From: Octopus vulgaris
Lineage: Eukaryota
Length of the DNA: 64,000 bases
Direction: 5' to 3'
NCBI GenBank assembly: GCA_951406725.2
Contig: OX597819.1
Span: 134,478,001 to 134,542,000 of the forward strand
How positions within the stretch are numbered: position 1 is the first letter of the stretch; every line of letters starts with the position of its first letter. The position numbers and the translations under genes are program-made. The notes below the pieces were generated by a model, which searched no databases, was not told where the DNA came from, and saw only the letters and a list, made by a program, of their open reading frames with translations. Below, piece by piece: positions 698 to 46,849 of the stretch.

Positions 698-1199
698 ATA
701 TAAAATATATCAAACCAGTAGAGTGGAAAATCTGGTATGTTTTTAACATACCAAATTTTTACAGTCTTTTGGTTACATATGCATATGCTCTGCAAATTGA
801 ATTCACCAAAAATTTCAATCATTCTGTATATAATATTTAAAATAAGACATATACATACGTTGGATGAATGAGAACATGGGGATGTACTTCACAAGGACAC
901 AGATTATAACCCCATGGTGGGGTGGCGGGTTAAAAGAGGAAGAGCTTTGCCCTATGCAGAAACTGCAGGGGCTGCTAAGGGGTATTGCAAGTTTTTCTGA
1001 ATCCATTGCAATGTCAGAAACCCTTCTGTATCATCAAGTTTCTCAGGGTTTTCCCCCCTCTGCTTCATCCAAGTGCATCAGTGAAGACTGAATTAGTTTC
1101 CCACAGTAGAAGGTTCTACTTGTGATTGCTTATTGACCTCTGCCACCTTGACGTGGTTTCAGCTGCCGTGCTTATCACCGGGGCTATAGCAGCTACAAC

Positions 1200-1600
1200 T
1201 TCAATATCCCTACATATCTTGCATCTATTTTCTTTCCTCCACCTCACTCTCTATTTTGTATCACATCTACTAAACTAACTCTGACTTAACCATCCTCTCA
1301 CACTGTCTCCGATGAAGGGATACAATTAATAAATATCCTGGAAACAGCTGTAAGACCTTCTATCTATAAATGTTCTGATATCTACACAGCCTTGGTTTTT
1401 TATCTCATTACACAAAAAAATTCTTATATACACATGCTGATATATGACCTACGTTGGACCCCTTATTCGCAAAATTACCGAATCTGGAACTTAACTATGG
1501 TCTGTCTATAGCACTTATTCAGCATTACCTAACACCTTTGGGTCTCAACGACACCATTATCTCTTACATACATCTTCTTCTTTCCACCGTCTGTCTTGAT
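1200..1600 (+). mobile_element. Penelope-like element 3' remnant (pLTR-like), boundaries approximate
   Basis: Contains the hammerhead motif, followed by a broken LIRKITES..LIQHYLTPLGLN peptide (1462-1550) resembling the C-terminus of Penelope GIY-YIG domains. Confidence 0.45.
1305..1356 (+). ncRNA. Minimal type I hammerhead ribozyme motif (Penelope-like element type)
   Basis: Stem I GTCT(1305-1308)/AGAC(1353-1356); core CCGATGA (1309-1315); stem II GGGATA/TATCCT with an A-G mismatch at its base; GAAA (1341-1344); palindromic stem III ACAGCTGT; GUA cleavage triplet ending at 1352. Confidence 0.7.
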
Positions 1601-1610
1601 AGACAATGGG

Positions 1611-2621
1611 TCACACCAAGGGTGGGGCCCACTTTGATGATGAGCAGCGTCTGCTGTGACTGAACAGTCCAATTCTAGAGTGGCAGTCCCTGGTACAGTT
1701 GCTGCACACGAACATCGATGGGTACGTGTGGGGTGTTGCTGCAGTTGTCCTCCTCCTGTCCCGCCTGTCCGACCACAGCTGTGCTCTCCTTTCCTCAGCC
1801 ATGGAAACGCCTTTCCTCACTGTCCGACGCCAGGCAGAGCGGTCAGCAGCTGTTACCTCCCACGTGTCCACACAGATGTTGGCAGTCCTCAGGTCGCGCT
1901 TGCACACATCCCTGTATCGTAGCTGTGGACGTCCCTTGGGTCGGGATCCCGTGGTGAGTTCGCTGTACAGGATGTCTTTAGGCATGCGACCGTCCTGCAT
2001 GCAGCAGACGTGTCCGAGCCAGCGCAGTCGTCTCCGCACAAGGAGGGCATGCATGCTTGGCATATTAGTCTGTTCTAGGATGACTCCGTTTGGTACTTGG
2101 TCCTTCCAGGAGATGCCAAGGATCCGTCGAAGACACCGCATGTGGAAGCCGCTGAGGCGGCATTCTTGCCGGGTGTATGTTGTCCAGCTATCGCTGCCGT
2201 AGAGTAGGGTGCTCAGCACGCAGGCTCGGTACACTGCGATCTTGGTGGTTATTGTGAGCATGTTGTTTCCCCACACTCTCCTGGAGAGCTTAGCCATGGC
2301 AGCAGCAGCCTTCCCAATCCGTCTGTTCAGCTCCGGCTCGAGGGACAGGCTGCTGGAGACCGTCAATCCCAGGTAAGTGAACTCGTTCACCACCTGCAAG
2401 CTGTGGTCGCCGACACTGATGCTGGGGACCCCTCCGACGTCCTGGCCTATGATCTCTGTCTTTTTCAGGTCGATGGTAAGGCCGAACTCTTGGCAGGCAT
2501 CCGCCAGGGAGCTGACCAGCCTCTGGAGACCCAGCTAGTTGTGTGATGTTAGGGCGGCATCGTCAGCAAAGAGGATCTCTCTGATCAGCACCTGACGGAC
2601 TTTGGTCTTAGCTCTGAGGTG
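1611..2621 (-). mobile_element. 5'-truncated RTE-clade LINE, GC-rich family (RT C-terminal half plus terminal zinc finger)
   Basis: Reads HLRAKTKVRQVLIREILFADDAAL (FADD motif), one in-frame stop, then EFTYLG, LLYGSDSWT, RRLRWLGHV and CSNCTRDCHSRIGLFSH. Confidence 0.9.
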
Positions 2622-21151: not shown

Positions 21152-21515
21152 ATATATATATATATATATTTAGCCAACAAGACTTATTGATCATTAAATA
21201 GTTATAGGGTTCTTTTAAGATAGTTTATACATTTACAATTTGCTTTTTCGTCTTTAATTTTTTAATTTTTTAATTATTTAAAATATTTCATAAGTAATAA
21301 TGAATAATTAATTTATTTAGTTTTTTTTAGTACGTATATATATTTATTGATAGAGATAATTTTAGATATTAATTATTATACATATAAATATACATATACA
21401 TAATGATATAAATAGGATTATGAGTATATGCACTCATATGTATATGTATATGTTTTATTATGGGTATGTACCCACACCTATATAAGTGTGTATGTAATCT
21501 GATTTGTATCACATA

Positions 21516-21642
21516 ATCTCCGAAGAGGCCTTAGGATATTTTTGTAAATGTCTCATTTATAACTACGTATTGACCTACCATAAATGGCTAATATAAGTAA
21601 AATGAGACATACTTATCTGCATGGCCGAAACAGCTGTAAGAT
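21516..21642 (+). ncRNA. Type I hammerhead ribozyme motif with extended stem II
   Basis: Stem I ATCT/AGAT; core CCGAAGA (21520-21526); stem II GGCC(21527-21530)/GGCC(21623-21626) enclosing ATGTCTCATTT/AAATGAGACAT; GAAA; palindrome ACAGCTGT; GUA ending at 21638. Confidence 0.75.
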
Positions 21643-22058
21643 GTAGTCTATATTTATATTTATAGTTACTTATATTTATATTCTCTTATACATATTGTAC
21701 TTATTGTATAACATTACTCCTTTATGCACACTCCTTTATGTACACTGTTTTGTTCTACATTATTATTATTATTATTATGTTTGACATTAAAGTTTCTTAT
21801 GTGGTGGTTTAATAAAGTATGTGATTGGGTATTATTTGGTAATTGATATTTGATTTGGATGTATTTCTCCATTTTCTTATTTTGTATTATGAATTTGTGG
21901 TAAAACATTTTACCTTTGCCCATATAATACAGTAAATGAATTAATTGCATCGCAATTCTTAACATTTATGTATTAACTTTGTTGGGTACTTCACTGGCAG
22001 TATATTGGATATATGTTATCCAATAGAGGGTTGCATTTACAACCCCTATCTCAATTTG

Positions 22059-22121
<63 letters not shown>

Positions 22122-31859: not shown

Positions 31860-33830
31860 TGCTTCCTGTCCATGCATGCCCCATGGCTGTTTCACTGGCC
31901 CCTGCAGTCTTCACTTCTGTTAGCTCACCTGCAATCCTCACCACCAACACCACATAGCTCATCACAGCCCATAACACCATACGCACCCTTGATCTACAGA
32001 TCATTCAGCCGGCTTTCCCACTCACTCCTCACTCTCAAACTGGTTTCATAATCAGCCAACCAAGGAGGAGGGTGCCACTTCCTCTGTGGTCGCTGTGCGA
32101 CCCCAGGACTGGCCAGAGTTCCTGGCATTCTGCTGCTGGCTTCATCATCTTGCCTACTGTTGCAGTCTTCATCTTCTTGCCCACTGCTGCTGGTTCCATC
32201 CTCTGAGGCATTGACAATCTTCCACACATCCAAAACGTGGCATAGCATACCATCAACAGAGACATTGTTCTTTGAATTGATGGAGGTTATTGTTCCCTTT
32301 CCCCATCATGATGTACACCGTGCATTTGGGGGTTTTACCCAAACTTCTACCCCGACCTGCACGAAGGTGTGCTCTTCCTCTGCCCCGGGTCGCATTGATG
32401 CAGTACATGGATGTCTCCACTCATACCTGAATATTGCCCTGTGTGGCACCGACTCCTCAGCCTGTCCTGACCTGGGTGATATATTGTACCAAAATATGGC
32501 CTCAATTGGTGAAATGCGGCCCCTCTCTGCCATGGTCTTGATAGTATGATGATGCCTTTCCACCACCCCATTTCCACCTGGCCAGTATGCCGCCCTGAAG
32601 AAGTGGTTGACCTGCCACCCATCAAGCATTTCTTTCAGCACCTCCGAGCGAAATGCAGTGCCATTATCCAGAAGCAGCTCATCCATGGGGCCTCATTCCA
32701 GGAATATCTCATTCAATACTTTCACACTTTCCTCTGCGGTCCCTGTCTTCATCTCCCTCCATATTGATTGCCAACCACCTCGGTCCGCAGTCAACCATTG
32801 AGAGGTATGTCCCCTGCCGGTAGTGTGTTATGTCCACCGCCAGTTGTTTCCAGTCGTGGTCCACTGGAATACTTCCCGCCTTTTGTACGCCCGGAGCAGG
32901 GTTGATGGACTGGCACCTGTCACAGCTGCTATCCACTCTCTGCACGCTCCGTCTTGTTACATCGGAGTCGACTTTCATGGCTAGGAACAACATCCTGTGC
33001 ATCCCCATATGATGCATGGTATGCAATCTCCTCAACTTCGAGTCACTCAGACGGCGTACTGCAGCGACAGCCTGCTCCACATCCTCTGGCACCTGCAACC
33101 AGGCTTGCTTTACCCTGGTCAGAACATCTGCCCTGTTCTTCTCAGAAGGCACAAAGATCATGCTCAGCTTCAGATTGAACTCAGTGGTTAGTTCACGCAG
33201 TATCTCCAATTGATGCTTTACCAACATCTCTGCGGCCCCTTTGGTTCGCACCCTCTGCTTATTGGTGTTGACTGCTGTCACCCAACCAAGTACAGTGGCC
33301 GAATTGGTCCTGATTCCTATGGTGCGCAGCCCCCACTTCAAGGCTAGGTTCACTCCCTTCAAACACGGCATCTAACTCTGCCACATTGATATGATTGCAG
33401 TCATCCGTCTTCCTGAGCCAGGCTGCATCTTCCACCATGACACCTCCCACTTCCAAGACAACCCCTATTGCGATGCTACTGGCATCACACCATACAATCT
33501 CGCTTTTTGATTTGAGAACATACCGACTGTCCCTCACTGGATCCTCTGTCCTCACTCTGACCAAGACTTTCTGTATCATGTCAGTGTCTTCTCCCCCACT
33601 CAATCCTTCCACTTCGCTCCTTCAGCTCGTCTCTTGAAGCTACATGCTGTCCGGAGCCATCCTGCAATCGGGTAGTGTCTCACCAGCTTCCCACATAGTT
33701 CCTGAATGTTACACGTGCTTCCTACCCATGCATGTCCTGTGGCTGTTCCACCAGCCCCTGCAGCCTTCACTTCTGTCTACCTCATCTGCAATCCTCTCCA
33801 CCAATACCACATAGCTCATCACACCACACA
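31860..33830 (-). mobile_element. Internally deleted Gypsy-type LTR element with short (~125 bp) LTRs; retains RNase H and integrase
   Basis: Direct repeats 31860-31976 and 33707-33830. WCDASSIAIG...HINVAELDAV (RNase H); H..HMG...CDRCQ zinc finger; LAVDITHY, LLDNGTAF, NGVVERHH (DDE integrase); frameshifted. Confidence 0.88.
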
Positions 33831-45442: not shown

Positions 45443-45587
45443 GTAAATATCAGCAATCATTCCATTGTTCTGTCATCGTGATTTTTAAAGCTAATATTCA
45501 ATAAAAGTTTTATATTTCCTTCAAAGTAAATCATGAAAAGACAAAAAACTTGAATTTTTTTCTCTTTTTCTGCTTTCTTTACAACAG

Positions 45588-46849
45588 GCCGAAATGGAGA
45601 ATATGATCCTACAAAGGAAGAATCTGAAGATCTTGAACGTGCATTAGCAGCAGCTTATAAAGATATTCGGGATGCTAAAGAAAAGCTTGATAAATTGTCC
45701 AGAGTTGGTGATCAATCTTCCCAGTTGATGGATGTTAATGATGAAGAATGGACCAAACATATTGCAGATTCACTTTTGAATTCTGTCCAGCCTAATACAG
45801 TTCCTGTCACTGCCACTACTTTGACTACTGGGAATGGTCTAGCTTCAGAGCTTATGAAAGATAATTTGAATGTTCTTGATAGTTCTGATTTAACAGCTAA
45901 TTCTCTGCCTATGTCTGGTCAAGTGATCAACCAGCCAGTTGGTTCCATTACAACTGCTACATCAAATGGAGGAACTTCAGTTTTGCCATATGGTTGGATT
46001 AATTTCAACATGGCCTCAGTGCCATCATCCCTTTCAGATCAACCATTGTCAAATTGTAACAACCTCTTTATTAATAGTAAGCATCTACCACTAGCATCCA
46101 CTCAATCTATAGCTTCAGATTTGGCCTTAACATCTTCTCAACAACTTTCAACAAATGTTTCACACCTTTCCTCTTCAATATACAGGTCTGCTTCAAACAA
46201 TCGAACTGTTTTGACTACCACTTCTAAAGAAACAGCCATAGAAGGAAACACTTCACTTGGAGGCATGGCACCTCAGCAGGTTTCTGTTGAGCCAAAGCCT
46301 TTGTCTTCATCTGAATCTTCACTAGCAGCTGCAACATCACAACAAGCTAATTGCCAAGAAGCAACACGAACCATTTCTGCCCATGCTGCAGCAGTCACAT
46401 CAGCTCAAACTGGTTTGTCAGCTCATGTAAACATCAACACCCAAACCTCAACTCAGTTGACTACCACTAGTATTCAGATGCCATCTTCTCAAACTGCCAT
46501 TCTTCCAACATTATTGTCAATGCAAAGTGGCTCTATTCGGCCTGGAATCTGGTCCGCTGGTGGAGTGACTGCTGGAATCCCTATTCACTATTACAATGGC
46601 TTGCCTTCATCAGGAAGAATACCATTTGTTCAGAACATGGATTCTGGACCTCCGCCTGGCAGCTCTGCTAAATTTCAGTTAAATTCACACTTAGATTCAG
46701 GGGAATATAAACAAGATTTGACATTTACTTCATTACCACATTCCATGGGGACTTCCCATGGGGGAGCCCAAAGAACACGGACTGAAAAGAATCAAGGAGC
46801 AAAACCTGGCTCTATAACACAATTGAACTCATCTGGGGAAAATACATAG
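45588..46849 (+). CDS. INO80D: INO80D terminal coding exon (Ser/Thr-rich C-terminus)
   Basis: Strong polypyrimidine acceptor; GRNGEYDPTKEESEDLERALAAA resembles INO80D GKNGDLLPTTEEAEELERALQAV; open to TAG at 46847-46849. Confidence 0.88.

What the first reader, a model, noticed from the sequence alone, without database searches (positions are those of the whole stretch)
1305..1356. Second hammerhead sharing the same variant core and stem III palindrome
Seen: GTCT-CCGATGA-A-GGGATA..TATCCT-G-GAAA-CAGCTG-TA-AGAC. It shares TCTCCGA and GAAACAGCTGTAAGA with the 21.5 kb motif, while stem II and flanks are unrelated and the outer stem I pair covaries (G-C versus A-T). Inference: U4C is a family trait rather than decay, and structure has been maintained across two divergent lineages.
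Basis: partly seen in the sequence, partly recalled or inferred. Interest (0 to 1): 0.7.

Follow-up and report, generated by a model that had tools for sequence, protein, structure and literature searches.

The report
Variant-core hammerhead of Penelope-like retrotransposons
This stretch is one of more than a thousand copies of a jumping-gene tail that carries a hammerhead-type RNA motif with one unusual core letter fixed in the family; it likely still cuts itself slowly as a pair, which is untested, and it is a small variant of a known kind.

Summary
Confirmed. Window 1305-1356 is a minimal type-I hammerhead motif (core CCGAUGA, loop-less palindromic stem III) inside a roughly 370-bp truncated 3' piece of a Hydra-clade Penelope-like element (PLE). 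The 21.5-kb motif belongs to a second Hydra family (reverse transcriptase 44% identical). U4C is the founder state of both families: 1276 CCGA, 298 CTGA and 157 CCAA copies in family A, and 92 of 100 listed copies in family B. In 79 copies picked blind to the core, TG (8) matches CA (9), as CpG decay predicts. C4 is not a trait of the whole group that shares the 15-mer: sister subfamilies carry U4, and so do 48 of 48 distinct sense-strand motifs of metagenomic Hydra-like elements. Two indirect signs suggest the motif still works. It is unchanged across four C4 subfamilies while flanks drift, and copy 5' ends pile up about five-fold at the predicted cut site. Cleavage was not tested. Minimal PLE hammerheads, the Hydra clade and U4C in viroid-like RNAs are in print; I did not find U4C fixed in a retrotransposon, but one key paper was unreadable. 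The scan noted a CCGAUGA retrozyme elsewhere in this genome.

The parts
1194..1566 (+). 5'-truncated, non-coding 3' piece (end of 3' UTR, pLTR and tail) of a Hydra-clade PLE, family A
   Evidence: 91-94% identity to the 39 other best genomic matches listed; shared 3' end, ragged 5' ends
1305..1308 (+). stem I 5' strand (GUCU)
   Evidence: unchanged in subfamily majorities
1309..1315 (+). core C3 C4 G5 A6 U7 G8 A9; C at 1310 is the U4C variant
1316..1340 (+). stem II: unpaired A1316 opposite G1340 (no G10.1-C11.1 pair), 6-bp helix, 11-nt loop that varies among subfamilies
1341..1352 (+). GAAA core, palindrome ACAGCUGU (1344-1351) with no loop, A17 at 1352; predicted cut between 1352 and 1353
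   Evidence: two-strand energy; cut site inferred from hammerhead numbering
1353..1356 (+). stem I 3' strand (AGAC); its first base is where several genomic copies begin
1357..1430 (+). rest of the pLTR up to the common first 3' end, which abuts (TA)n in other copies
1431..1566 (+). tail up to the second fixed 3' end
   Evidence: that a tail repeats the region before the ORF was shown for family B only (L246)
21516..21642 (+). family B hammerhead motif (CCGAAGA, 100-nt stem II arm, same palindrome) in a second truncated Hydra-clade PLE piece (at least about 21360-22070)

Best explanation
The motif is the minimal type-I hammerhead in the terminal repeat of a truncated Hydra-clade Penelope-like retrotransposon copy, with U4C as the founder state of its family, and it likely still works in the parent element as a slow ribozyme predicted to cut only as a dimer. 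Shown: identity of the parent (GIY-YIG endonuclease with CxCX5C linker about 0.9-1.4 kb upstream in longer copies, RT further up), founder state C4, CpG-type decay back to CTGA or CCAA, an unchanged motif across four C4 subfamilies, and an excess of copy 5' ends at the predicted cut. Inferred: two motifs pair through the 8-nt palindrome and swap stem I strands to form a double hammerhead that cuts after GUA. Cutting is slow, so most RNA templates reach reverse transcriptase uncut (every copy that holds the whole motif was copied through the site), while a minority is cut and gives short copies that start at or just after the site. This lone copy has no ORF and no partner of its family nearby and is probably an inert fossil.
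For: Parent: searches (12 of 13 endonuclease-linked family A copies with a motif found downstream have C4; family B: RWK, DKT, CNCRSKNQC), defining features read in PMC8557442 section 11. Founder state; blind set of 79 copies 61 CG, 9 CA, 8 TG, 1 CC, neighbouring CpG 64 CG, 7 CA, 4 TG, 4 AG; U4 tips scattered in the C4 clade. Constraint: 0 of 26 stem I, core and stem III positions against 22 of 119 flank positions differ among four C4 subfamilies, Fisher p 0.014; the one stem II change keeps the pair. Dimer: double hammerhead -21.1 against -13.0 kcal/mol for two monomers. Cut site: 15 of 75 insertion events end at -1..+9, 0.024 per base against 0.005 upstream, p 1e-5; 5 end at -1 or 0. U4C viroid ribozymes still cleave according to passages in PMC3088659 and PMC9608096.
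Against: No cleavage assay and no raw RNA reads. The active fold is not the lowest-energy one: monomer -2.6 against -6.5, dimer -21.1 against -23.1 kcal/mol, and the competing fold pairs C3/C4 with the G before GAAA and G12. The 5'-end excess is a broad zone (-7..+16). Five events run 5-7 bases past the cut, many junctions are fold-backs at short palindromes, and the exact-site excess is only p 0.011 against the local rate, with one event moved from +4 to 0 by eye. The conservation test is partly circular, because copies were collected with a pattern that tolerates few mismatches in the motif, and subfamily A1b has only 8 copies, 5 with C4. PMC4209133 reports low in vitro activity for minimal PLE hammerheads even with a normal core. 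PMC11167929 found hammerhead mutants did not affect insertion in vitro and saw no RNA reads ending at the site. PMC3088659 says U4C considerably lowers activity in vitro.
Confidence: 0.62

Rival explanations
1. Same element and same founder U4C, but the motif no longer cuts to any useful degree; it is kept as a structure (for example a binding or pausing site for the element's protein) or by short-term inertia, and the 5'-end excess comes from reverse transcriptase pausing or cDNA fold-back at palindromes.
For: Misfold is favoured; 5 of 75 events pass the cut by 5-7 bases and end in the AGCT palindrome, others end at TA palindromes; hammerhead mutants do not impair PLE insertion in vitro (PMC11167929); position 4 flips between subfamilies.
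Against: All other catalytic positions stay fixed between families that share only 34-44% protein identity and across C4 subfamilies; one event has both arms ending at the cut (L343) and one starts there with no inverted arm (L369).
Confidence: 0.3
2. The C at position 4 is post-insertion decay of this copy from a canonical CUGA motif.
For: CTGA is the commonest core among all short-stem matches of the 15-mer (49 of 100) and in the Hydra clade at large.
Against: Within the copy's own family C4 is in 71 of 79 blind-picked copies and T matches the G-to-A rate at the next base; 1276 against 298 genome-wide; 97 of 100 listed family B copies have C4.
Confidence: 0.02
3. The motif belongs to a non-autonomous tandem retrozyme rather than to a protein-coding PLE.
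For: Most copies are short and non-coding; an earlier scan note describes a 359-nt CCGAUGA retrozyme in this genome (not checked).
Against: Longer copies run continuously into a GIY-YIG endonuclease and RT; the sampled copies are dispersed singles or inverted pairs, not head-to-tail arrays.
Confidence: 0.04

Closest known systems
Minimal hammerheads (min-HHR) of Penelope-like elements, Cervera and de la Pena 2014, PMC4209133 (read parts 1-2 of 4)
   Same: Type I, short stem I, longer stem II, palindromic stem III without a loop, extra base after A9, location in the pLTR, thousands of dispersed truncated copies, proposed dimer
   Different: Core is CCGA; the parts read report only the U3-A8 core covariant. 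Family A has A opposite G or A at the base of stem II in place of G10.1-C11.1.
Hydra clade of PLEs, Craig et al. 2021, PMC8557442 (read section 11, passages, supplement part 2 with the Hydra list and hammerhead table)
   Same: C-terminal GIY-YIG with CxCX5C linker, no CCHH, CxxC and CxH around E and N, RWK and DKT motifs (family B), (TA)n targets, inverted 5' pieces; one octopus family is already listed; ACAG/CUGU stem III and a 1x1 mismatch at the base of stem II occur in published members
   Different: All 26 Hydra rows (25 families) of the published table have CTGA, though found with a CUGA-based descriptor. The families here have 3' UTRs of 1-2 kb and exceed the usual 3 kb.
U4C hammerheads of viroids and viroid-like RNAs (PLMVd variant; CtaHVd-LR1 variants; zeta and betaviroid-like RNAs); passages in PMC3088659, PMC9608096 and bioRxiv 10.64898/2026.09.16.752053
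   Same: Same CUGA to CCGA change, reported as tolerated
   Different: Those are in circular RNA replicons (type III where the passage states it); here it is a minimal type I motif with no predicted tertiary contacts, fixed in genomic retrotransposon families.
Metazoan non-LTR retrozymes (PMC7229834, passages; bioRxiv 10.64898/2026.07.22.740005, part 1 of 5)
   Same: Type I hammerhead in a repeated element related to PLE pLTRs
   Different: Retrozymes are non-coding tandem repeats; this motif is tied to an RT-endonuclease ORF and dispersed.

Membership tests
Hammerhead ribozyme (type I) | Core C3 U4 G5 A6 N7 G8 A9, G12 A13 A14, A15.1-U16.1, H17 | tested here: not met
   All positions present except U4, which is C; a deviation reported as tolerated
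Hammerhead ribozyme (type I) | Three helices around the core, open at stem I, supported by covariation | tested here: met
   Stem I 4 bp with outer pair G-C (A) or A-T (B); stem II paired with unrelated sequence in A and B
Hammerhead ribozyme (type I) | Match to an Rfam hammerhead model | tested here: not met
   No hammerhead family among 54 matches at E up to 1
Hammerhead ribozyme (type I) | Site-specific self-cleavage after H17 | not testable with these tools
   Only indirect: excess of copy 5' ends at the site
PLE min-HHR | Palindromic stem III with little or no loop, needing a dimer | tested here: met
   ACAGCUGU; computed double hammerhead about 8 kcal/mol below two monomers; dimer formation itself is a prediction
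PLE min-HHR | G10.1-C11.1 pair at the base of stem II | tested here: not met
   Family A: A opposite A (53), G (21), C (2) or T (2); family B has the pair. A 1x1 mismatch there was found in 19 of 48 distinct metagenomic motifs
PLE min-HHR | Location in the pLTR downstream of an RT and GIY-YIG ORF | tested here: met
   Pfam GIY-YIG E 9e-4, below the curated cut-off
Hydra-clade PLE | CxCX5C linker, no CCHH, CxxC and CxH around conserved E and N | tested here: met
   Family A CNCRPGTTC..CKPCLKE..LN..CNH; family B CNCRSKNQC..CSLC..E..IN..CLH; read by eye
Hydra-clade PLE | RWK and DKT motifs in the N-terminal part | tested here: inconclusive
   Present in family B (L246); no family A copy reaching that far was fetched (L238 is truncated)
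Hydra-clade PLE | Insertion into (TA)n, fixed 3' end with tail, inverted 5'-truncated partner | tested here: met
Hydra-clade PLE | Placement in an RT tree with published Hydra reference proteins | not tested
   Reference proteins were not fetched; one search uses genome copies and four search hits only
Non-LTR retrozyme | Non-coding head-to-tail tandem repeats with a hammerhead in each unit | tested here: not met
   Dispersed copies linked to an ORF

The most novel reading that the evidence does not exclude
Hydra-clade PLEs in this cephalopod-like genome have repeatedly switched position 4 of the hammerhead core between U and C as a way to tune cleavage down. The C4 ribozyme cuts in vivo, and the pile-up of copy 5' ends at the scissile bond is a fossil record of PLE hammerhead cleavage in the germ line. 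Because families with 34-44% protein identity keep an identical palindrome, they could also cut each other as mixed dimers.
Probability: 0.2. Interest if true: 0.62.

Novelty: new variant of a known kind. Interest (0 to 1): 0.37.

Why it matters
The role of hammerheads in Penelope-like elements is open: in vitro they cut poorly and seem dispensable for insertion. These families give a natural matched pair (C4 family A1 and its U4 sister A2, differing at 1 of 26 stem I, core and stem III positions) and a genomic read-out (copy ends at the cut site) that make the question testable. In practice, descriptors that demand CUGA would miss over 1500 motifs counted in this genome, so ribozyme censuses of animal genomes may undercount. 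It does not add a new ribozyme class or a new kind of element.

Tried and rejected
Rfam scan: no hammerhead hit. The first endonuclease ORF found beside a family A copy (L076) belongs to a different, young two-ORF PLE with its own hammerhead, so it was rejected as the parent. Sequencing runs: no RNA holder listed, contigs only. Contigs of four runs cover the stretch, but position 1310 was not among the rows shown (23 hidden), so nothing is drawn; a second laying gave no result, so there is no independent control of the 5'-end excess. Family B could not be tested for the 5'-end excess because its copies were selected on the core. Two full-length copies of the young PLE start 43-48 bases after its predicted cut site, not at it, which gives no calibration. 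The endonuclease tree cannot separate one gain of C4 with reversions from several gains. A MAFFT alignment across families was unusable because two ranges were mis-set; pair counts rest on scripts. Luense et al. 2017 on PLE hammerhead variants was not held and one further paper id was not held; either may bear on novelty. Supplements of PMC4209133 and PMC3088659 were not read. Literature searches.

Full report
OBSERVATION. The 15-mer GAAACAGCTGTAAGA is exact at both places and occurs 9839 times in the 2.8-Gb own genome against 8 for the reversed control. In hammerhead numbering (from established knowledge) the core is C3 C4 G5 A6 U7 G8 A9, stem III is the loop-less palindrome ACAGCUGU, and the cut would fall between 1352 and 1353. 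Apart from the 15-mer the two copies show only chance-level similarity. The single strand does not prefer the hammerhead fold and Rfam has no hammerhead hit. The genome is probably a cephalopod: the only organism-named protein relative is from Argonauta hians; this is an inference.

WHAT THE ELEMENT IS. The copy spans about 1194-1566. Its relatives share fixed 3' ends that mostly run into (TA)n, have ragged 5' ends and often carry an inverted second arm. Walking upstream through longer copies leads through a pyrimidine-rich 3' UTR to a GIY-YIG endonuclease whose match ends about 0.9-1.4 kb before the motif, and in L238 to a broken RT. The endonuclease has the CxCX5C linker, no CCHH, and CxxC and CxH motifs, which PMC8557442 section 11 gives as Hydra-clade features. 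The 21.5-kb family leads to a near-complete element in L246 with RWK, DKT and CxCX5C, and part of its tail sequence recurs just before the ORF. The two families are 44% identical over 160 RT residues and 34% in the endonuclease. All family A endonuclease matches listed besides the query are at most 85% identical to it and many hold stops, so the family looks old; no intact copy was seen among those fetched.

IS U4C A FAMILY TRAIT? With a family A flank the genome holds 1276 CCGA, 298 CTGA and 157 CCAA copies. For family B, the first 100 of 296 matches are 92 CCGA, 5 CCAA and 3 CTGA (counted by eye). CCGA contains a CpG, so decay gives CTGA and CCAA alike. In 79 copies chosen by patterns downstream of the motif the two bases read CG 61, CA 9, TG 8, CC 1, close to the neighbouring CpG. 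Five of the 20 CTGA loci fetched fall in a sister clade; the others lie in the C4 clade as scattered tips, apart from L072 on a two-row branch beside it (125 rows, core columns removed, many inner branches weak). So C4 is the founder state in both families. It is not shared by all carriers of the 15-mer. The first 100 of 3840 short-stem matches are 49 CTGA, 38 CCGA, 10 CCAA and 3 other (by eye; family B is excluded by the gap limit). The sister clade A2 has U4 in 14 of 15 rows and family C is mixed, 6 CTGA to 7 CCGA or CCAA by a rough classifier. In the endonuclease tree A1 (C4) and A2 (U4) group together (93/83), family C has both states, and B lies outside; most rows had no motif found downstream. 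That needs about three changes whichever state is ancestral.

OUTSIDE THIS GENOME. All 26 Hydra rows in the published table have CTGA, but that search demanded it. My scan left position 4 free: of 77 metagenomic loci related to the Hydra-type alignment, 55 have a sense-strand motif, 54 CTGA and 1 TTGA, none CCGA; 48 are distinct. One of 6 reverse-strand hits (L430) is a well-formed CCGA motif. U4 is therefore the usual state and C4 is rare elsewhere. ACAG/CUGU stem III is common in these loci and L439 has the same loop-less palindrome with CUGA, so the shared 15-mer is largely clade heritage. A mismatch at the base of stem II, as in family A, is also common (19 of 48).

HOW IT LIKELY WORKS. 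A stem III without a loop cannot close in one molecule. The computed double hammerhead is -21.1 kcal/mol against -13.0 for two monomers, though a misfolded dimer is 2 kcal/mol lower; family B gives -65.7 against a best dimer of -68.3 and a mixed A-B dimer -41.6 against -34.1 for the monomers. PMC4209133 found such motifs inactive as monomers and weakly active as dimers. Every copy holding the whole motif was copied from RNA that was intact at the site, which fits slow cutting (inference) and the finding in PMC11167929 that unprocessed RNA is the main substrate. Two results suggest function survived U4C. First, among four C4 subfamilies 0 of 26 stem I, core and stem III positions differ in the majority letter against 22 of 119 flank positions (p 0.014), while the loop changes freely; adding A2 gives 1 of 26 (position 4) against 55 of 119. 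Collection by pattern makes this partly circular. Second, for 75 insertion events picked by a pattern about 50 bases downstream of the cut (from 75 of the 100 listed places, of 576 matches), the furthest-upstream base of either arm falls at -1..+9 in 15 cases, five times the upstream rate (p 1e-5); 5 are at -1 or 0, one of them re-placed by eye. A partly overlapping sample picked by a nearer pattern showed the same (11 of 73 arms at 1351-1358). Against this, 5 events pass the cut by 5-7 bases, many junctions are palindromic fold-backs, and against the local rate the exact-site excess is only p 0.011. RT pausing or fold-back remains a live rival.

COMPARISON WITH WHAT IS KNOWN. It works like the min-HHR of PLEs and sits in a Hydra-clade element by motif criteria; no tree with published references was made. 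It fails strict membership of the canonical core at U4 and, in family A, at the 10.1-11.1 pair. U4C is reported in a PLMVd variant, where it lowers in vitro activity but allows infection (PMC3088659, passages and section 8), in a citrus viroid-like RNA (PMC9608096, passage) and in several betaviroid-like RNAs (bioRxiv 10.64898/2026.09.16.752053, passages). Six searches showed no report of U4C fixed in a retrotransposon family. Luense et al. 2017, seen only as a reference in PMC6765202, could not be read and is the likeliest place for one.

VERDICT. A real feature, a new small variant of a known kind. Interest 0.37: the core variant is precedented, but its fixation in long-lived PLE lineages, the natural C4/U4 sister pair and the hint of in vivo cutting make an open question testable.

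Noticed in passing
L152-L155 (for example L153:625-4370 +): A young PLE (150 scored matches, nearly all 96-98% identical to the query, many with an intact 811-aa frame) with an upstream ORF of about 450 aa overlapping the RT and GIY-YIG ORF in another frame; its hammerhead has the U3-A8 covariant core (UUGAAAA) and palindrome ACCGGU.
   Followed up: partly
L430 (metagenome contig), reverse strand: A well-formed CCGAUGA hammerhead near the end of a Hydra-type ORF match, the only C4 motif found in 77 metagenomic loci.
   Followed up: no
window 21527-21626; L020: Family B and the L020 family carry a stem II arm of about 100 nt that folds as a long hairpin (z -2.3 for the window motif); L020 has CUGA.
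   Followed up: partly
L244:6500-9900, L408: A further Hydra-type family (endonuclease about 40% identical to family A) inserted beside a family B copy; no hammerhead was found in the stretch held.
   Followed up: partly
L010, L017, L020, L076, L397: Other canonical CUGA minimal hammerheads with different palindromes (ACGAUCGU, ACACGUGU, AUGUGU) lie in loci fetched for other reasons.
   Followed up: no
window 1611-2534 (-): 307-aa C-terminal piece of a LINE-like ORF directly beside the PLE piece; RTE type by recall, Pfam gave only a weak DUF6451 match.
   Followed up: partly
window 32306-33621 (-): Broken RNase H- and integrase-like frames, probably an LTR retrotransposon remnant (weak RVT_3 match).
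   Followed up: no
window 45554-46849 (+): 431-aa low-complexity open frame, probably a host exon on the same strand as both motifs; no clear Pfam family.
   Followed up: partly
L224, L226, L229 linker between RT and endonuclease: Family A and C ORFs carry long in-frame Asn/Thr-rich stretches of variable length before the CxCX5C motif.
   Followed up: no
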